From assembly GCF_988243305.1 (NCBI RefSeq), contig NZ_OZ547136.1: 64,000 nucleotides of DNA. One strand, 5' to 3'. The stretch's first letter is position 1, and every line of letters begins with the position of its first letter. Position numbers and translations under genes: made by a program. The notes below the pieces were generated by a model that made no database searches, was not told the DNA's origin, and was given only the letters and a program-made list of their open reading frames with translations. Of the stretch, positions 8,490 to 51,300 are shown piece after piece.

Positions 8490-10181
8490 TTACGCTGCTT
8501 TCGCTACTGCGTCCACTTCCGGACGTTTCAGGAAGGCATAGGCCAGACCCGCCACCAGCGTACCGGCAATAATGGCTACCAGGTAACCCAATACCGGCGT
8601 AATCGCGCCAGGGATCAGCAGAACAAACAGACCACCGTGCGGTGCCATCAGTTTCGCACCAATCGCCATTGAGATTGCGCCAGTCAGCGCCCCACCCACG
8701 ATACAGCACGGCAGCACACGCATCGGATCACGGGCAGCAAACGGAATTGCACCTTCCGAAATAAAGCACAGTCCCAGTACCAGAGCGGCTTTGCCCCCTT
8801 CCTGCTGCGCTTTGTCGAATTTGCGACGCGCCACCATTGTTGCCAGGCCCATTGCCAGCGGTGGCACCATACCTGCCGCCATAATCGCCGCCATCGGGCC
8901 ATAGGTTTGAGTACTCAGCAGACCCACACCGAACGCGTACGCTGCTTTGTTTACCGGACCGCCCATGTCAGTACACATCATGCCACCGAGGATCGCCCCC
9001 AGCAGAACCGCATTCGCAGTCCCCATGGTCTGCAGCCAGTGAGTCAACCCTTCGAGAATGCCAGCAACCGGTTTACCGATCAGATAGATCATCGCCAGAC
9101 CGACCACCAGACTGGAAATTAGCGGAATGATCAGAATCGGTTTCAGCGCCTCCATACTCTGCGGCAGTTTCAATTGCGTACTGATTAACTTCGCAATGTA
9201 ACCAGCCAGGAAGCCCGCAATAATACCGCCAATGAAGCCAGAACCGGTGCTGACCGCCAGCATACCGCCAATCAGACCCGGCGTGAGACCCGGACGATCG
9301 GCAATGGAAAAGGCAATATAACCTGCCAGTACCGGCACCATCAACGCAAAGGCTGAACCACCACCAATCTGCATCAGCGCCGCAGCCAACGTACCCGGCT
9401 CTTTAAACGCTTCGATACCAAAAGCAAAAGAAAGCGCGATACACAGACCACCTGCAACGACCATCGGCAGCATGTAAGAGACGCCCGTCAGCAAGTGACG
9501 GTAAGCGCCTGCACTCTCTTTCTTACCTTCAGTGGTCGCTGTTTGAGTTTTGCCCGCCGGTTCATACGGCGTTGCTTCAGCAACCGCTTTATCCAGTTCC
9601 TGCGCGGTTTTCTTCAGCGCCAGACCGGTAGAGGTGCGATACATCGGTTTACCAGCAAATTTCGCCAGATCCACTTCAATATCTGCCGCCACAATCACCA
9701 GATCCGCTGCGGCTACTTCTTCAGGGGTGATTGCATTACCCGCGCCAACCGAACCACGGGTTTCAACTTTCACCCACCAGCCACGTTTTTTCGCTTCGGT
9801 TTCAATGGCTTCAGCCGCCATAAAGGTGTGTGCTACGCCAGTCGGGCAAGCAGTCACCGCAACTACGCGTTTCGGACCGCTGGCGGCAACCGGTGCTGTC
9901 GCAGCGACCGGCGCAGTGTAAGGTTTCGCATGGCCTTTGGCTTCACTCAGGAACAGCTCAGGGTGCGCAACTGCCCGGGAAATATCGCCCAGCCAGACAT
10001 TTTTACCGTTCAGCGCGCTGTCGTTCGGGATGGAATCACCGAGAACAATCGCCATTTCAGCGTCGTTCGGATTGTCGATGATTTCCAGTTTTGCTTTTCG
10101 CGCCGCCGCGCCCAGCAGGGTCTTCGCCATATAGGCGCGTGCCTGACCGAGATTAGCGTCAATAATCAGCAGCGTTTTCAT
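8490..10181 (-). CDS. fruA: PTS fructose-specific EIIB'BC component
   Basis: 563-aa ORF with polytopic C-terminal domain; operon fruB-fruK-fruA. Confidence 0.95.
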   Translation of the reverse strand: MKTLLIIDANLGQARAYMAKTLLGAAARKAKLEIIDNPNDAEMAIVLGDSIPNDSALNGKNVWLGDISRAVAHPELFLSEAKGHAKPYTAPVAATAPVAASGPKRVVAVTACPTGVAHTFMAAEAIETEAKKRGWWVKVETRGSVGAGNAITPEEVAAADLVIVAADIEVDLAKFAGKPMYRTSTGLALKKTAQELDKAVAEATPYEPAGKTQTATTEGKKESAGAYRHLLTGVSYMLPMVVAGGLCIALSFAFGIEAFKEPGTLAAALMQIGGGSAFALMVPVLAGYIAFSIADRPGLTPGLIGGMLAVSTGSGFIGGIIAGFLAGYIAKLISTQLKLPQSMEALKPILIIPLISSLVVGLAMIYLIGKPVAGILEGLTHWLQTMGTANAVLLGAILGGMMCTDMGGPVNKAAYAFGVGLLSTQTYGPMAAIMAAGMVPPLAMGLATMVARRKFDKAQQEGGKAALVLGLCFISEGAIPFAARDPMRVLPCCIVGGALTGAISMAIGAKLMAPHGGLFVLLIPGAITPVLGYLVAIIAGTLVAGLAYAFLKRPEVDAVAKAA

Positions 10182-35160: not shown

Positions 35161-37752
35161 TCAGAACGACCAGACCACACCCGCCTGAGTATTCCACGGT
35201 GATTCTACCCCTGCGCCATTGCCATAACTGACTGACAAATGACCGCTTAACGTCGGGGTAAACGATGACCTTATCCCAGCCTGATAAACGCCACGGGTTC
35301 CAGCCACATCATTATTAAATTTGCCATCGTCATTAACTTTCACCTGGTTAGAATCGGCGTATTCCTGACGCACGGCGGCTTTCAGCCAGGGTTCCAACGT
35401 CGTACCGTTTTGCAGGTCCATGTGATAGCTTACCGCCGTTCCCGCTTCAGCGCGTAATATCCGGGTATTTCCCACATCCGCGCGCATGCCATTTGATAAC
35501 GTGTAGTCCTGACCATCTGTGGTAAAGCCGGTAAAGGCCAGATAGGGTCTAACACTCCACAATCCGTCAACCCAACGGAACCCGCTCTCGACATGAGCAC
35601 CCGCGCCGTTACTATTGTAATCGCCAAACGCTGTTGCTCCATTACTCATCTTGCCATGGATGGTGTTGGCAAAACGGTCAACTTTCACCACTCCATCAAC
35701 ATAGGCACCGTTCTGATGCTCCCAACCGGCATAAGCCCCCAGGGTGTAGCTATCGATATTACCTTTGCCGCCGCGATCAAAACCAATATCAGAATGAGAG
35801 TAACCAAAGAACAAGCCGCGAATTGTGCTGCTTTCTTCACGGGAGAAACGGCTATCGATACCGAGCGTCAGGCCCGTCAATGTTTGCTCAAAGCCAGCTC
35901 CCGCATCAGTGGTCACGTTGTTGCGGGTGTTAATTGCCGAACTCCACATCGCCGTATCGTAACTAACGCCTTTTACGCTACCAAGACGCTCACGCACGGT
36001 GTCCAGTTCTGCATCAAATACCAGCGGTTGTGCTGCTGCCATGTTCAGCACATCAGTGGTTGAAGGGGTAATTTGCGCGCGATTCTCTGCGAGGCTCCAG
36101 CTATGGTTGCCATTATCCAGCAAGGTATATTCATACGTACCGATATCAACAACGCCTCCGGCATTGCCCAACGTAAATGCAGCATCACCGCCGCCCGTTG
36201 TTACCAGTGTAAGGCTATCTCCTGCTGCCGGGCTGGCACCGGTGTCCGTCACGAATATTTTGAAATCACCTGTTGCCTGACCGGTGACGTTGAGCTGATC
36301 GCTCTGATGATTAGCCATATCGGTACGCATATAAAAATTGCCATTTCCCGACAGGGTATTGGTGGTCAACGTAATGAAATTTTCCGCACTTGCCGTCACA
36401 GATGAACGAGTCACTGGCTCAGCCATCATAATCACATTTGCGCCAGACATCGCAAGGTTGGCTAAGTTGAGGCGAGTGTTTTGGTTCGTCGTAGTGATAT
36501 CGGCAATGATGGTCCATGCGCTATTTTCGAGCGAAACATCCGCTTTGCTGGTATCCACGGCACCATGCGTTCTAAAAGAAGCGCTATCAGAAACCACTAC
36601 CTTACCCACCAACATTGCGGGCGCATAATTTATTTGCGGCTTCATGACCTCAAGAATGCCATCATTCCCTCTGACTGAAACGTTAACCATTGTGCCAGCC
36701 CAGACGTTAGCGCGGCCATTGTTGATAACCATATTTTCAGAGATGGCTTTTGAGGAATACGTGATACTTCCATTCTGATCTGATCGACCGAGATCATATA
36801 CCGCATTTGCCTGCACTCTCGTACCAGTATCCTTTCCCAGCGATTGCATAGTGGCATGCTCATCAAGGATAGTATCAATGGCCTGCGTGTCCTCCATAAC
36901 AATGAGCCCGGAACCATCATCCAGTTCATAATTTTTTGACACACCATCTTTTATACTAAATTGGCCTTTACTGTTTGTACCACTCACTTCCAGCGCATTC
37001 GTTGAGACAATTAATTTTCCGCCTGCTTTTTTATCAACGCCAGTTGCAGTCCCGCCATCCATAACCTCCAGTAAGCCGCCACTATCCACAGTGGTATTAT
37101 AAGCGAAGTCATTTTCTTCAACTCGCAAACTTCCGCCGTTTTCCAACAGCATATTATTAGCAATACCATCCTTGATATCGAACTGACCGAGACGGTTTGT
37201 TCCGAATACCTCCATGGCCCGCGTGGTTGTTTTAATCGCACCGCCTGCTTTCTGATCTACCGCAAATGCTAATCCCCCCTCTTTAACCTCCAGTAATCCT
37301 CCCTTTTCGATAGCGGCAAAGACGGTAATCCCATCTTTTTCAATAATTAAGCGCCCGCCTTTAATGGTAGTATCATTCGCTGCGCCATAAACCTGTAGCA
37401 CACCATTATTGAGGGTAGTCTGGTTTGCCGCGCCACCCATTTGAACAATTTGATAACCGTCATTTAATACTGAGTATTCTGCGGTGCCATTCATTTCAAT
37501 GTACTGATACCCTCCGTTAATTTCAGTATTACTACTTACACCAAATTCTTTTATATGCTGTTCTCCGCCAGGATTGATTTTCGTATTATTGGCGGTCCCA
37601 TAAACCAGCTGGATATCTTTTTCCAGGACAACACCATCAACTGTCTCACCATACTCAACTGTTGATGCCAATGCTATGGGTGAATATAACGCTGTAGCCA
37701 CCAGAACAGATATTGCGGAACGACAAAGAGAAACAGAACCAGATTGATGCAT
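35161..37752 (-). CDS. yejO: Adhesin-like autotransporter (type Va secretion)
   Basis: 863-aa ORF with N-terminal signal peptide, Gly/Thr/Asn-rich repetitive passenger and C-terminal beta-barrel ending in an aromatic residue (...VVWSF). Appears intact; the region looks lower in GC than its flanks. Confidence 0.85.
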   Translation of the reverse strand: MHQSGSVSLCRSAISVLVATALYSPIALASTVEYGETVDGVVLEKDIQLVYGTANNTKINPGGEQHIKEFGVSSNTEINGGYQYIEMNGTAEYSVLNDGYQIVQMGGAANQTTLNNGVLQVYGAANDTTIKGGRLIIEKDGITVFAAIEKGGLLEVKEGGLAFAVDQKAGGAIKTTTRAMEVFGTNRLGQFDIKDGIANNMLLENGGSLRVEENDFAYNTTVDSGGLLEVMDGGTATGVDKKAGGKLIVSTNALEVSGTNSKGQFSIKDGVSKNYELDDGSGLIVMEDTQAIDTILDEHATMQSLGKDTGTRVQANAVYDLGRSDQNGSITYSSKAISENMVINNGRANVWAGTMVNVSVRGNDGILEVMKPQINYAPAMLVGKVVVSDSASFRTHGAVDTSKADVSLENSAWTIIADITTTNQNTRLNLANLAMSGANVIMMAEPVTRSSVTASAENFITLTTNTLSGNGNFYMRTDMANHQSDQLNVTGQATGDFKIFVTDTGASPAAGDSLTLVTTGGGDAAFTLGNAGGVVDIGTYEYTLLDNGNHSWSLAENRAQITPSTTDVLNMAAAQPLVFDAELDTVRERLGSVKGVSYDTAMWSSAINTRNNVTTDAGAGFEQTLTGLTLGIDSRFSREESSTIRGLFFGYSHSDIGFDRGGKGNIDSYTLGAYAGWEHQNGAYVDGVVKVDRFANTIHGKMSNGATAFGDYNSNGAGAHVESGFRWVDGLWSVRPYLAFTGFTTDGQDYTLSNGMRADVGNTRILRAEAGTAVSYHMDLQNGTTLEPWLKAAVRQEYADSNQVKVNDDGKFNNDVAGTRGVYQAGIRSSFTPTLSGHLSVSYGNGAGVESPWNTQAGVVWSF

Positions 37753-38071
37753 TGAGCTTTCATCCTATGAAATTAATTGCTGTTAAAAGCATTGGGTAAA
37801 GAAAATACCCATAGCTCCATACCCGGAGTCAGTTTTTAAAAACTGTTTAAAGAAATGCACAAGTATTGTGATTGATTTTTTAGTTGTTTTTCTTGATGAG
37901 AAGCTGATGCAAAATTCCGTCTTTATAATGAAAATGATGCCAAAGCGAACGACAAGGTTGTAGTTTTCACTACATGTCCATACATAAAATGGGGTAACAT
38001 TCACGCGCCTGGTAGCGTTACCAACGCTACGCTCAAACATAATGATTCTAATAAAACCTCAGGAGACTACT

Positions 38072-38719
38072 ATGCCTGAAGCAACGCCTTTTCAGGTGAT
38101 GATTGTGGATGATCATCCACTTATGCGACGCGGTGTTCGTCAGTTACTGGAGCTTGATCCTGGCTTTGAAGTGGTCGCCGAAGCGGGCGACGGCGCGAGC
38201 GCGATCGATCTGGCAAATAGACTGGATATCGACGTGATCTTGCTGGATCTCAATATGAAAGGTATGAGTGGCCTGGATACCCTCAATGCCTTGCGCAGGG
38301 ATGGCGTTACCGCGCAAATTATTATCCTGACCGTATCAGATGCCTCCAGCGATGTCTTTGCGCTGATAGACGCAGGCGCAGACGGTTATCTGTTGAAAGA
38401 CAGCGACCCGGAAGTGTTGCTGGAAGCGATTCGTGCCGGAGCGAAAGGCAGCAAAGTCTTTAGCGAACGCGTCAATCAGTACTTACGTGAACGTGAAATG
38501 TTTGGCGCGGAAGAAGATCCCTTCAGCGTGCTGACGGAGCGCGAGCTGGATGTTCTGCACGAGCTGGCACAGGGGCTGTCAAATAAACAGATTGCCTCGG
38601 TGTTGAATATTTCCGAGCAGACAGTAAAAGTACACATTCGCAATCTGCTGCGTAAACTCAATGTCCGCTCACGCGTGGCGGCCACCATTCTGTTCCTGCA
38701 ACAACGCGGGGCACAATAA
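38072..38719 (+). CDS. narP: Nitrate/nitrite response regulator
   Basis: ORF track starts at 38042; ATG at 38072 (MPEATPFQVMIVDDHP...) gives 215 aa with receiver and LuxR-type HTH domains. Confidence 0.95.
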   Translation: MPEATPFQVMIVDDHPLMRRGVRQLLELDPGFEVVAEAGDGASAIDLANRLDIDVILLDLNMKGMSGLDTLNALRRDGVTAQIIILTVSDASSDVFALIDAGADGYLLKDSDPEVLLEAIRAGAKGSKVFSERVNQYLREREMFGAEEDPFSVLTERELDVLHELAQGLSNKQIASVLNISEQTVKVHIRNLLRKLNVRSRVAATILFLQQRGAQ

Positions 38720-40360: not shown

Positions 40361-42300
40361 ACAGCCTCCGGCGCAGTTTTCTGCGGATTCACGCGCTTAC
40401 GATAGCGAGGATCAAACAGACACAGCAGCCCGCCCAATGCCATCATCAGCCCGCCCGCCCAAATCCAGCGAACAAACGGTTTGTAGTAAAGACGCACGGC
40501 CCACGCGCCGTTTTCCAGCTCTTCACCGAGCGCGGCGTACAGGTCACGCGTGATGCCGCCGTCAATTGCCGCTTCGGTCATCATCGACCCAGCAGTGTTG
40601 TAATAACGTTTTTCCGCATACAGCACCGTTTCCGGCTTGCCATCGCGCGTTACGCCGATAGTCGCCACACCGCCACGCCAGTTCGGGCCAGTCACCTCTT
40701 TGACATCACGGAAGGTGAAGCGATATTCATGAATATCGACACTATCACCGGACTTCATGCGCACATCACGCTCAACGCTATAGTTCTGGCTAAAGGCAAT
40801 ACCAACAATTGTCACTGCCAGCCCCAGGTGAGCCGCCACCATTCCCCAATAACTGAAGGTGGTTTTCGTGCCGCGTGAAATACGCAGCACAGCTTCCGCA
40901 ATTGCCAGCACCGCAATCCAGCAGGCCATTGCCAGGCCGAGCACCGTCATCGCCACAACTTTGCTTTCGAACAGCCACGGCAACAGCAGAGACAGCACCA
41001 GCGTAGAGATGAAGGCGATAATCAATAAATTGCGGATTTTACGTGGGCGATCGCGCCCCCAGCGCACCAGAGGACCGACACCAAGCAGTAGCGCAAACGG
41101 CACCATCAGCCAGGTAAACATGGTGTTGAAGAACGGTTCGCCAATCGAAATACTGCCCAGTCCCAGTTGCTTGTGCACCAGCGGCAACAGCGTCCCCAGC
41201 AACACCACCAGCATCGCGGCGACCAGCAAAACGTTGTTCGCTAACAGCAAAGATTCCCGCGACCACAGCGCATTGTTTACGCGTGAGCGAACTTTGTGTC
41301 CACGCGCAGCAAACAGCAGCAGCGAACCGCCAATCACCAGCACCATAAAGGCGAGGATAAACATGCCGCGCGCCGGATCAGAGGCAAACGCGTGTACCGA
41401 TACCAGCACGCCGGAACGCACGAGGAAAGTCCCCAACAGACACAACGAGAAGGCACTGATTGCCAGCAGTAATGTCCACGCTTTGAAGCTGGCGCGTTGT
41501 TCAGTGACCGCCAGTGAGTGCATCAGCGCAGTCCCCACCAGCCACGGCATAAACGAGGCGTTTTCTACCGGATCCCAGAACCACCAGCCACCCCAGCCGA
41601 GTTCGTAATAGGCCCATGCGGAACCGAGCACGATGCCGAGCGTCAGGAAGATCCACGCTGCCAGTGTCCACGGACGAGTAAAACGCGCATAAGTGCTGTC
41701 CAGACGCCCGCTCAACAAAGAAGCAATGGCAAAAGCAAACGCCACCGAGAAGCCGACGTACCCCATATAGAGCAGAGGCGGATGGAAGATCAACCCCGGA
41801 TCCTGCAACAGCGGGTTAAGGTCGCGCCCTTCAATCGGGAAGTTCGGCAGCGTGCGTGAGAATGGATTAGAGGTAAAGAGAATGAACAGCAAAAAGCCGA
41901 CGCTGACCATCCCCATTATCGCCAGTACACGGGCCACAATATCCAGCGGAATACGCTGACTAAAAATCGCTACCGCAAAGGTCCAGCCGCTCATTAGCAG
42001 CACCCACAGCAGGAGCGAGCCTTCATGCGCGCCCCAGGTGGCCGCCACGCGATACCACACCGGAAGCTGGGTATTAGAGTTGCTGGCAACATAGGTGACG
42101 GTAAAGTCGTTGACCACGAAAGCATTGACCAGCACCAGAAATGCGCCAGCCACAGACATAAACAGCAGCCAGGCAAATAAGCGGGAAGACGCCATCATGC
42201 GCGCATCTCCGCGCGCCACGCCCCATAGCGGATACACGGACAGCAGCAGCGCAATTCCCAGCGCCAGGCACAGCAGTCCGTTACCAATTTCCGGCATCAT
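40357..42300 (-). CDS. ccmF: Cytochrome c-type biogenesis heme lyase subunit CcmF
   Basis: 647-aa polytopic ORF with a Trp-rich WGGWWFWD motif. Confidence 0.95.
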
Positions 42301-50149: not shown

Positions 50150-50409
50150 GGTGTTTCCTCACCTTGCTCTTCCTGCTGGTGATAAACCAGCGACACCGCC
50201 AGCACGCCCTCTACGTTGCGTACTGACTCAATGGTTTGAATCAGCGTTTCGCTGTCTTCTGCTTCCACCACCACAATCAACTGACCGCTCGGCGCGTCGC
50301 TGACAGCAACTTCACAGCCGGGAAAGGCGTTCAGTTGGGTGCTGATGTCTGAAATTCGTTCGCTTTTGGCCTGCACGACCAGGCTGCAAACTTGCCAGTT
50401 AGTGTGCAT
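50146..50409 (-). CDS. napD: NapA chaperone NapD
   Basis: 87-aa ORF overlapping napA start by 4 nt. Confidence 0.9.
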
Positions 50410-50893
50410 GGAGATACTCCGCAGTTATGGCTGATACCGGACAGCTGGCTGCACATGCTCCACATCCGTTGCAAAGTTGGCTATTAAGTTGCGGCTGGTA
50501 GATCCCGGAGAGCGTCGGGCGAAAGATAATTGCCATTGGCTCACAGCTATCCTGACAGCGGCGGCATTCAACTGACTGATACGCCAGGCACGCCTCCCCG
50601 ATGGTGAACAGCAAATCCCAGGCCCTGGTGTGGCGCGGAGAAAATAGCGATTCGGGGCAAGCCTGCGCGCAGGCGTAACAGAAGCTGCACTCGTTATTTT
50701 TGAAATTAACGCTCGGATAGCCACCCGCGCCGCGTTGCAGAATGTTGTTTTCACAAGCATTAATACAGGCGTCGCAGCGAGTGCAATGGGTCAGAAAATG
50801 AGATTCATCACCGGACCAGGGCGGACGGATACCGTTACTGGCTTTGCGCCAGCGACCAGTGAGTATGCCCCGACGGGATGCATCAATCTTCAC
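50399..50893 (-). CDS. napF: Ferredoxin-type protein NapF
   Basis: 164-aa ORF with multiple CxxCxxC motifs; start codon is GTG by sequence. Confidence 0.9.
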   Translation of the reverse strand: MKIDASRRGILTGRWRKASNGIRPPWSGDESHFLTHCTRCDACINACENNILQRGAGGYPSVNFKNNECSFCYACAQACPESLFSPRHTRAWDLLFTIGEACLAYQSVECRRCQDSCEPMAIIFRPTLSGIYQPQLNSQLCNGCGACAASCPVSAITAEYLHAH

Positions 50894-51006
50894 ATTGACC
50901 TTCCATCATTAACGCGCTCTGAAAATTGAGAGCGACCAAATAAACCGCATAATTAATAAGCCATTTTTATAGCCGCTAAGATATTAAAGGATGTGTCAAA
51001 GATGCA

Positions 51007-51022
51007 TACCCCGATCGGGGTA
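51007..51022 (-). promoter_or_regulatory. NarP/NarL 7-2-7 heptamer pair in napF promoter
   Basis: TACCCCG-AT-CGGGGTA, a perfect 16-bp palindrome matching TACYYMT-nn-AKRRGTA. Confidence 0.7.
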
Positions 51023-51027
51023 AAACC

Positions 51028-51041
51028 TGTAGCAGGATCAA
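51028..51041 (-). promoter_or_regulatory. Candidate FNR site in napF promoter
   Basis: Minus-strand TTGATCCTGCTACA (one good TTGAT half-site), centred 20 bp upstream of the NarP site, consistent with the recalled -64.5/-44.5 architecture. Confidence 0.5.
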
Positions 51042-51300
51042 AAGAGTGGCGGGAAGCGTGGCAAAAACGGGCTTTTGCTCACATTTCAAATGGTTATAAA
51101 CATATTTATATAGCGATTAATTCACCAGAGATATTTATGTCGGTTTGTTCTCTCACCAGAATTTAACACTAAAAGAGCAGGTAAAATTGTCTGAATGTTC
51201 TTTAAGTTATTCATAAAGCAAATTAATAAATCTGATGAATATGTTAACCTTCAGCGACATCATCGGTGAAAACCTATAAATGAAGAAGGAAAGCAAAAAA

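What the first reader, a model, noticed from the sequence alone, without database searches (positions are those of the whole stretch)
50894..51060. napF promoter with a perfectly symmetric NarP/NarL 7-2-7 site and an FNR site 20 bp upstream
TACCCCGATCGGGGTA is an exact palindrome in 7-2-7 heptamer format, and a TTGAT-containing FNR-like site sits centred 20 bp further from the gene, matching the known anaerobic and nitrate control of nap. napF also starts with GTG. This is a good internal control for reading regulatory sites by eye.
Basis: partly seen in the sequence, partly recalled or inferred. Interest (0 to 1): 0.2.

Follow-up and report, generated by a model that had tools for sequence, protein, structure and literature searches.

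The report
Known E. coli napF promoter control region

Summary
TACCCCGATCGGGGTA is an exact 16-bp palindrome at 51007-51022. A TTGAT-containing 14-mer (TTGATCCTGCTACA, minus strand, 51041-51028) is centred exactly 20.0 bp further from napF. napF (50893-50399, minus strand) is annotated with this GTG start.

The window is E. coli and matches K-12 MG1655 base for base from the GTG to about 210 bp upstream, so published K-12 mapping transfers directly. Open papers place the napF 7-2-7 site at -40 to -49. They also report an in-vivo FNR ChIP peak here, activation by FNR plus phospho-NarP, and antagonism by NarL.

Seven orthologous promoters (Escherichia, Citrobacter, Leclercia) keep TTGATC, the 7-2-7 core, the -10 block and their spacing invariant while the flanks drift.

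Caveats:
- Neither motif is above chance on sequence alone.
- Both heptamers miss the consensus at position 7.
- The FNR right half is degenerate in every species.
- A better-scoring but unconserved FNR-like match sits in the 5' UTR.
- The control region continues upstream of 51060, with CRP-like and ModE-like elements.
- The transcription start was inferred, not retrieved.

Verdict: already known, interpretation supported, low interest.

The parts
50399..50893 (-). napF coding sequence (164 aa, GTG start). It is the first gene of the minus-strand run napFDAGHBC-ccmABCDEFGH, which continues down to about 38754.
   Evidence: ORF list. RefSeq annotation of the same ORF in 118UI and K-12 b2208. 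The K-12 gene order napF..napC, ccmA..ccmH, narP matches the ORF sizes in the window.
50899..50904 (-). Shine-Dalgarno GGAAGG, 5 nt upstream of the GTG.
   Evidence: Read directly from the sequence. ATGGAAGG is invariant in all 7 orthologous promoters.
50894..50970 (-). Inferred 77-nt 5' UTR. The P1 start (+1 = A at 50970) is inferred by placing the 7-2-7 centre at -44.5.
   Evidence: Arithmetic. The -40..-49 position comes from PMC4549865. No structure beyond shuffles (z = -0.45). The start site itself was not retrieved from a primary source.
50978..50983 (-). Candidate P1 -10 hexamer TATCTT (-13..-8).
   Evidence: Lies inside the invariant block AATATCTTA (-15..-7) shared by all 7 species. 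The hexamer assignment is an inference.
50981..50986 (-). Candidate -10 hexamer TAATAT of the minor overlapping promoter P2, offset 3 nt upstream.
   Evidence: Sequence. It reads AAATAT in Citrobacter and Leclercia. The existence of P2 rests on recall of Stewart et al. 2003 (title cited); the paper was not read.
51007..51022 (.). NarP/NarL 7-2-7 site TACCCCG-AT-CGGGGTA, a perfect palindrome centred at 51014.5 (= -44.5).
   Evidence: Thirteen of its 16 columns (0.81) are invariant across genera. Two Citrobacter carry the symmetric double change TACCCCAATTGGGGTA. Literature.
51028..51041 (-). FNR site TTGAT-CCTG-CTACA, centred at 51034.5 (= -64.5).
   Evidence: TTGATC is invariant in 7 of 7 species, the right half is C[T/A]AC[A/T], and there are no indels relative to the 7-2-7 site. 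FNR ChIP peak napF/yojO with PWM ln p = -5.37.
51068..51083 (-).
   Evidence: Pattern scan. The block TTGAAATGTGAGCAAAAGC is conserved in Escherichia and Citrobacter but absent in Leclercia. Assignment to CRP rests on recall of Stewart et al. 2009, listed in the references seen but not read.
51092..51115 (-).
   Evidence: CGCTATATA is an exact match. The partial palindrome appears. It is conserved in Escherichia and Citrobacter. ModE activation of nap is stated in PMC8139620. The -133.5 position is from memory of McNicholas & Gunsalus 2002, not retrieved.

Best explanation
This is the control region of the major promoter (P1) of the E. coli periplasmic nitrate reductase / cytochrome c maturation operon napFDAGHBC-ccmA-H.

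Under anaerobiosis, a dimer of [4Fe-4S]-FNR binds the weak site TTGATCCTGCTACA centred at -64.5. With low nitrate or with nitrite, a dimer of phosphorylated NarP binds the palindromic 7-2-7 site centred at -44.5. That site occupies the position of a -35 element, and no -35 hexamer lies at a workable spacing from the -10. The two activators together recruit sigma-70 RNA polymerase to a poor -10 (TATCTT).

At high nitrate, phospho-NarL competes for the same 7-2-7 site and displaces NarP. Expression therefore peaks at low nitrate.

Upstream elements add further inputs: a CRP-like element at -105.5 (carbon source) and a ModE-like element at -133.5 (molybdate).

Shown here: the sequences, their geometry, identity to K-12, and conservation across genera. 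Taken from retrieved papers: the 7-2-7 position, in-vivo FNR occupancy, and the regulatory logic. Inferred or recalled: the exact +1, the -64.5 label, the P1/P2 hexamers, and the CRP and ModE assignments.
For: - Exact palindrome and exact 20.0-bp spacing.
- Locus identity and annotation.
- 100% identity to K-12 from the GTG to about -210.
- The napF 7-2-7 site is placed at -40..-49 in PMC4549865, and napF is one of four classical 7-2-7 genes in PMC2718512.
- FNR plus NarP-P induce, and NarL-P prevents NarP-P binding. A fusion spanning only -85..+19 was used there as the reporter of NarP activity, responded to changes in NarP level, and peaked at about 5 mM nitrate (PMC9262595). With +1 = 50970, -85 is 51055, which just includes the FNR 14-mer.
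- FNR ChIP peak at napF/yojO, classed as co-activated by NarP (PMC3688515).
- Phylogenetic footprint across 7 promoters. The invariant blocks are TTGATC, TTTACC, GGGGTATGC, ACACATCCT and AATATCTTA, with no indels between them. By contrast, 26% of columns are invariant just upstream of the FNR site and 8% further out.
- A symmetry-preserving double substitution at heptamer position 7 in two Citrobacter.
- The 75-bp core is identical in 4959 of 5421 E. coli genomes.
- The composite architecture is expected 0.027 times per window by chance.
Against: - Neither motif alone exceeds chance in the window.
- The FNR 14-mer matches only 7 of 10 consensus positions here and 6 of 10 in the other species.
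- A better consensus match lies at +37.5.
- The transcription start was not retrieved. The primary J. Bacteriol. and J. Mol. Biol. papers are not held. The -64.5 label, the P1/P2 assignment and the -133.5 position therefore rest on my recall plus internal consistency.
- -64.5 is not a canonical class I or class II FNR position.
Confidence: 0.95

Rival explanations
1. The palindrome and the TTGAT motif are chance sequence features with no regulatory role. The real nap control elements lie elsewhere in the 400-bp interval.
For: Generic 16-bp palindromes occur about once per 64 kb, and 4 are present. Degenerate 7-2-7 and FNR consensus matches are at chance frequency. A better FNR-like match exists at +37.5.
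Against: Both elements and their spacing are invariant across three genera while the flanks diverge. The +37.5 match is already lost in E. albertii. Retrieved papers place the 7-2-7 site at -40..-49 and an FNR ChIP peak here. The composite is expected only 0.027 times per window.
Confidence: 0.01
2. The conservation reflects protein-coding constraint on the overlapping annotated gene yojO (51002-51166, plus strand), not transcription-factor binding.
For: yojO is annotated in K-12 (b4604) and in many RefSeq genomes. Its first 16 codons cover the two sites and look conserved.
Against: The yojO frame carries in-frame stops at codon 21 in E. albertii and in a divergent E. coli, and at codon 16-17 in all Citrobacter and Leclercia. 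Its ATG is GTG or GAG there. Conservation stops exactly where the DNA sites stop.
Confidence: 0.01
3. The sites mainly serve the divergent plus-strand genes (yojO/eco), or act chiefly as a NarL repression site, rather than activating napF.
For: The interval is divergent. A sigma-70-like match pointing toward eco lies at 50926-50953. NarL binding here is repressive for nap.
Against: The promoter-like match is at chance level: 1 found against 1.6 expected. The sites are 260-290 bp from eco but sit at -44.5 and -64.5 of a conserved napF -10 block. Myers et al. assign the FNR peak to napF. A -85..+19 napF fusion served as the reporter of NarP activity and responded to changes in NarP level.
Confidence: 0.03

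Closest known systems
E. coli K-12 napF (aeg-46.5) operon control region, promoter P1 (Darwin & Stewart 1995; Darwin et al. 1998; Stewart et al. 2003)
   Same: The sequence is identical from the GTG to about 210 bp upstream, with the same 7-2-7 site, the same FNR 14-mer and the same gene neighbours. This is that element in another E. coli strain.
   Different: The window is not K-12. There are nine substitutions further upstream, in the distal part of yojO. yejO is intact here but interrupted by IS5 in K-12. None of these differences touches the promoter core.
E. coli nirB and nrfA promoters (FNR plus a NarL/NarP 7-2-7 site)
   Same: They use the same two regulators and the same 7-2-7 site type, and they are listed together with napF and fdnG as the classical 7-2-7 genes (PMC2718512).
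   Different: From general knowledge, those promoters have FNR proximal (about -41.5, class II) and the 7-2-7 site distal (about -69.5 or -74.5). In napF the order is inverted, with NarP proximal at -44.5 and FNR distal at -64.5. This was not tested here.
NarL-activated ogt and yeaR promoters with a 7-2-7 site near -44.5
   Same: A 7-2-7 site sits at nearly the same position: ogt -44.5 (PMC7419079) and yeaR -38..-47 (PMC4549865).
   Different: Those are activated by NarL and do not need FNR. At napF, full-length NarL-P antagonises NarP, although the isolated NarL C-terminal domain can activate.

Membership tests
NarL/NarP 7-2-7 binding site | Two inverted heptamers matching TACYYMT, separated by exactly 2 bp. 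| tested here: met
   TACCCCG-AT-CGGGGTA matches 6 of 7 positions in each heptamer (position 7 is G, not T) with exact 2-bp spacing and perfect dyad symmetry. As a consensus match alone it is at chance frequency in 64 kb (3 hits against 2.5 expected).
NarL/NarP 7-2-7 binding site | Conserved in orthologous promoters of nitrate/nitrite-respiration genes. | tested here: met
   TACC-C...GGGGTA is invariant in Escherichia, Citrobacter and Leclercia. Two Citrobacter carry a symmetric double change at position 7. The site is unchanged in the most divergent E. coli alleles.
NarL/NarP 7-2-7 binding site | Bound by phospho-NarP/NarL, and required for the nitrate/nitrite response. | not testable with these tools
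   Stated in retrieved papers: PMC9262595, PMC4549865 (-40..-49), PMC2718512 and PMC1802743 (NarP-dependent napF::lacZ). The primary footprint papers are not held.
FNR (CRP/FNR-family) binding site | A 14-mer matching TTGAT-N4-ATCAA. | tested here: inconclusive
   TTGAT-CCTG-CTACA has a perfect left half, while the right half matches 2 of 5 positions. Matches with up to 3 mismatches occur 342 times in the window. The published PatSer score under the ChIP peak is ln p = -5.37, among the weakest listed.
FNR (CRP/FNR-family) binding site | Conserved position and sequence in orthologous promoters. | tested here: met
   TTGATC is invariant in 7 of 7 species. The right half is conserved as C[T/A]AC[A/T]. 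The distance to the 7-2-7 site is fixed.
FNR (CRP/FNR-family) binding site | Occupied by FNR in vivo or in vitro. | not testable with these tools
   A ChIP-seq (MOSAiCS) and ChIP-chip (CMARRT) peak is reported at napF/yojO, position 2301669 in the coordinates used by that paper (PMC3688515 Table S5). It is assigned to napF and classed as co-activated with NarP. Applying the roughly 1.98-kb offset between K-12 genome versions (from my own knowledge), the peak falls about 10 bp from the 14-mer.
Activator-dependent sigma-70 promoter | A -10 hexamer at the right distance from a mapped start, and a weak or absent -35. | tested here: inconclusive
   TATCTT (4 of 6 matches to TATAAT) lies at -13..-8 of the inferred start, inside an invariant 9-bp block. 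The -35 position is occupied by the 7-2-7 site. The generic promoter scan finds nothing on the minus strand, as expected for such a promoter. The start site itself was inferred, not retrieved.

The most novel reading that the evidence does not exclude
Both sites contain a Dam methylation target. One GATC lies exactly on the dyad of the 7-2-7 site (51013-51016) and another lies inside the invariant FNR half-site TTGATC (51036-51039).

It is not excluded that, in Escherichia, the methylation state of these GATCs changes NarP/NarL or FNR affinity. That could happen, for example, while the DNA is transiently hemimethylated after replication. Equally, bound regulators might protect these sites from Dam, adding an epigenetic or cell-cycle layer to nap control.

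Arguing against this, the dyad GATC is lost in several Citrobacter and in Leclercia (AATT or GATT at the centre). The TTGATC could also be conserved simply as the FNR half-site.
Probability: 0.04. Interest if true: 0.35.

Novelty: already known. Interest (0 to 1): 0.05.

Why it matters
This does not matter as a discovery. The napF control region has been dissected since the 1990s, and the window's copy is identical to the K-12 reference.

Its value is as a calibration point. It shows that the first-stage reader can locate and correctly interpret a real composite regulatory site. It also shows the limits of that skill. On sequence statistics alone neither motif stands out, and the best-scoring FNR-like match in the interval is not the functional one. 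Conservation and spacing separate signal from noise, not motif quality.

The side result that yojO is probably not a gene is a small point of annotation hygiene.

Tried and rejected
1. Retrieving the primary mapping papers failed. None is held: Darwin 1998 (PMC107417), Stewart 2003 (PMC193976), McNicholas & Gunsalus 2002 (PMC135098), Stewart & Bledsoe 2005 (PMC1251606) and Stewart 2009 (PMC2632075). Searches for '64.5', '44.5' and '133.5' returned unrelated papers, with 'NaPF6' chemistry matching 'napF'.

2. The supplement of PMC9262595 is not held, so I could not map its -85..+19 fusion onto the sequence.

3. A hairpin or attenuator in the 5' UTR was rejected. The inverted repeat at 50915-50934 and the terminator-like hit at 50948-50932 do not hold up. 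The UTR folds no better than shuffles (z = -0.45), and the repeat is not conserved in Citrobacter.

4. The FNR-like 14-mer at +37.5 (50926-50939, 2 mismatches) was rejected as functional. It is already degraded in E. albertii and absent in Citrobacter.

5. The perfect TTGACA at -29..-24 was rejected as a -35 element. It lies only 7-10 bp from the -10 candidates, and it reads CTAACA, CAAACA or CTTACA in other genera.

6. yojO coding constraint as the cause of conservation was rejected.

7. The plus-strand promoter-like match at 50926-50953 is at chance level.

Full report
**What is in the sequence**

The interval 50894-51300 lies between a minus-strand ORF (50893..50399, 164 aa, first codon GTG) and a plus-strand ORF beginning at 51280/51301. 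The string TACCCCGATCGGGGTA occurs once in the window, at 51007-51022. It is its own reverse complement and is centred at 51014.5.

On the napF-sense strand, the 14-mer TTGATCCTGCTACA occupies 51041..51028 and is centred at 51034.5. That is exactly 20.0 bp further from the gene.

**What locus it is**

A 927-bp query spanning the interval matches 5421 of 5426 complete E. coli genomes, once each and always on the chromosome. The annotated neighbours are napD, napF, a hypothetical protein/yojO, and eco. RefSeq annotates napF with the same GTG start in strain 118UI and in K-12 MG1655 (b2208).

The window is not K-12. Most genomes match at 95-99% over the 927 bp, and yejO is intact here but IS5-disrupted in K-12. 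From the GTG to about 210 bp upstream, however, it is identical to MG1655, so anything mapped in K-12 applies base for base. Downstream on the minus strand lie napDAGHBC and ccmA-H, and narP itself is encoded about 12 kb away in the same window.

**Is it more than chance?**

Taken singly, no.
- Perfect palindromes of at least 16 bp are expected about 1.4 times in 64 kb, and four are present.
- The degenerate 7-2-7 consensus TACYYMT-N2-AKRRGTA with up to 2 mismatches gives 3 hits against 2.5 expected. The napF heptamers each miss the consensus at position 7 (G instead of T).
- TTGAT-N4-ATCAA with up to 3 mismatches gives 342 hits against 250 expected. The napF 14-mer has a perfect left half and a right half (CTACA) matching 2 of 5.

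Taken together, a 7-2-7 match with an FNR-like match centred exactly 20 bp away is expected 0.027 times per shuffled window; 8 of 300 shuffles contain one. That is suggestive, not conclusive.

A better FNR consensus match (2 mismatches) sits at 50926-50939 in the 5' UTR. Motif quality alone would point to the wrong place.

**Independent test: phylogenetic footprint**

A scan of one genome per species with NapF returned seven true orthologous loci: E. albertii, a divergent E. coli, four Citrobacter and Leclercia. NapF identity ranges from 74% to 96%.

Aligning 320 bp upstream of six of these loci with the window (seven sequences in all; the divergent E. coli was aligned separately) gives the following runs of at least five invariant columns. 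Positions are relative to the inferred start.

| Block | Position |
|---|---|
| TTGATC | -71..-66 |
| TTTACC | -54..-49 |
| GGGGTATGC | -42..-34 |
| ACACATCCT | -26..-18 |
| AATATCTTA | -15..-7 |
| ATGGAAGG (Shine-Dalgarno) | +65..+72 |

A seventh run (TTGAT) falls inside the napF coding sequence. No indel occurs between the FNR half-site and the -10 block.

The fraction of invariant columns by segment is:

| Segment | Invariant columns |
|---|---|
| 7-2-7 16-mer | 0.81 |
| -16..-7 | 0.90 |
| FNR 14-mer | 0.64 |
| 5' UTR | 0.41 |
| Just upstream of the FNR site | 0.26 |
| Further out | 0.08 |

Two Citrobacter carry TACCCCAATTGGGGTA. Both heptamers have changed at position 7 in a way that keeps the palindrome perfect, which fits dimer recognition. 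The FNR right half is degenerate everywhere (CTACA, CAACA or CTACT), so the conserved FNR determinant is essentially one half-site.

Within E. coli, the 75-bp core (-1..-75) is 100% identical in 4959 of 5421 genomes. The most divergent alleles leave the palindrome and TTGATCC untouched. The +37.5 FNR-like match is already degraded in E. albertii.

**What the literature retrieved here says**

- PMC4549865 places the napF 7-2-7 site at -40 to -49, which gives a centre of -44.5.
- PMC2718512 lists napF with fdnG, nirB and nrfA as the genes with reported 7-2-7 sites. It notes that NarP binds only that arrangement.
[quoted passage not shown] It used a -85..+19 fusion as a reporter of NarP activity; expression peaked near 5 mM nitrate.
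- PMC1802743 shows NarP-dependent napF::lacZ activity.
- PMC3688515 reports an FNR ChIP-seq/ChIP-chip peak at 'napF/yojO'. It assigns the peak to napF, classes it as requiring co-activation by NarP, and gives a PWM score of ln p = -5.37, among the weakest in the table.
- PMC8139620 adds ModE activation, IscR repression and an ArcZ-napF mRNA interaction.

The primary mapping papers are not held.

**Derived architecture**

Setting the 7-2-7 centre to -44.5 puts P1 +1 at the A at 50970, with a 77-nt leader. The remaining elements then fall as follows:

| Element | Position |
|---|---|
| FNR 14-mer centre | -64.5 |
| TATCTT | -13..-8 |
| TAATAT (offset 3 nt) | -16..-11 |
| TGTGA-containing CRP-like element centre | -105.5 |
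| CGCTATATAA..TATAACC centre | -133.5 |

The values -64.5 (Fnr), -133.5 (ModE), two starts 3 nt apart (P1 and P2), and a Crp site upstream of the Fnr site all agree with what I recall from the abstracts of Darwin 1998, Stewart 2003, McNicholas & Gunsalus 2002 and Stewart 2009. That agreement is a consistency check from memory, not a tool result.

With +1 at 50970, the -85 end of the PMC9262595 fusion is 51055. That fusion includes the FNR 14-mer and excludes the CRP-like and ModE-like elements.

**Mechanism**

Anaerobic FNR binds a deliberately weak site at -64.5. Phospho-NarP binds a strong palindromic site that takes the place of a -35 element. Together they activate a promoter with a poor -10. 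Phospho-NarL competes for the same site at high nitrate, so Nap is made mainly when nitrate is scarce. Carbon source and molybdate inputs act from further upstream.

The binding and competition steps are taken from the literature. The sequences, spacing and conservation are shown here.

**Rivals**

- Chance is excluded by the conservation data.
- Coding constraint from the overlapping yojO ORF is excluded. That frame has stops at codon 21 in E. albertii and in a divergent E. coli, and at codon 16-17 in Citrobacter and Leclercia. Its apparent conservation ends where the DNA sites end.
- A role for the divergent eco/yojO side is unsupported. The only plus-strand promoter-like match is at chance level, and the sites are 260-290 bp from eco.

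**Comparison and verdict**

This is the K-12 napF (aeg-46.5) P1 control region itself, in another E. coli strain. It is related to the nirB and nrfA promoters, which use the same regulators in the opposite order, and to NarL-activated promoters such as ogt and yeaR, which carry a 7-2-7 site near -44.5.

Nothing about it is new.
- Heptamer position 7 is non-consensus.
- The FNR site is half-canonical and weak.
- The control region extends to about 51115.
- The GTG start is specific to Escherichia.

Interest is low. The finding's value is as a positive control.

Noticed in passing
window 51002-51166 (+): The annotated small ORF yojO (b4604, 54 aa) overlaps the NarP, FNR, CRP-like and ModE-like sites. 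Its frame has in-frame stops in E. albertii, a divergent E. coli, all four Citrobacter and Leclercia, and its ATG is GTG or GAG outside Escherichia. The apparent conservation of its first 16 codons is explained by the DNA sites. It is probably not a real gene.
   Followed up: yes
window 50891-50893 (-); L005-L009 1501-1506: napF's GTG start is specific to Escherichia. In Citrobacter and Leclercia that codon is GTC and an ATG occupies the next codon (MVD... instead of MKID...). Both starts lie behind the same invariant GGAAGG.
   Followed up: yes
window 50926-50939: TTGGTCGCTCTCAA is a better match to the FNR consensus (2 mismatches) than the functional site. It is centred at +37.5 in the napF leader and is not conserved even in E. 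albertii, so it is likely chance. It is a warning for consensus or PWM scans.
   Followed up: yes
window 51013-51016 and 51036-51039: Dam GATC sites lie exactly on the dyad of the 7-2-7 site and inside the invariant FNR half-site TTGATC. The first is lost in several Citrobacter and in Leclercia. No evidence of a role for methylation was sought.
   Followed up: partly
window 51065-51089 (-): The block TTGAAATGTGAGCAAAAGC is conserved in Escherichia and Citrobacter. It contains a perfect CRP left half (AAATGTGA) with a weak right half, and is centred at -105.5. It probably corresponds to the Crp site reported for catabolite control of napF, but that paper was not retrievable.
   Followed up: partly
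window 51092-51115 (-): The ModE-like element CGCTATATAA-N7-TATAACC is centred at -133.5.
   Followed up: partly
L009 1167-1243 (Leclercia adecarboxylata MAG): A tRNA-Arg(tct) gene sits directly upstream of the napF FNR site in Leclercia, replacing the CRP-like/ModE-like part of the region. The FNR-NarP-(-10) core module is retained intact.
   Followed up: yes
window 51028-51032 (right half of the FNR site): The window and K-12 have CTACA. E. albertii, divergent E. coli and Citrobacter have CAACA, which appears ancestral. The E. coli allele is one base closer to the ATCAA consensus.
   Followed up: yes
window 38042-38719 (+): narP, which encodes the regulator that binds the palindrome, lies in the same window about 12 kb from its target, next to ccmH. 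The ORF list gives a start 10 codons upstream of the K-12 start.
   Followed up: partly
window 37830-37845, 38105-38120, 40721-40738: Three other perfect palindromes of 16-18 bp are present: CAGTTTTTAAAAACTG between yejO and narP, GTGGATGATCATCCAC inside narP, and CGATATTCATGAATATCG inside ccmF. They were not examined.
   Followed up: no
window 9714-9729: TACTTCTTCAGGGGTG matches the 7-2-7 consensus with 1 mismatch, better than the napF site. It lies inside a 563-aa minus-strand ORF, so it is most likely chance.
   Followed up: partly
window 35161-37752 (-): An intact 863-aa ORF sits where K-12 has the IS5-interrupted pseudogene yejO. This confirms that the window comes from a non-K-12 E. coli.
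   Followed up: partly
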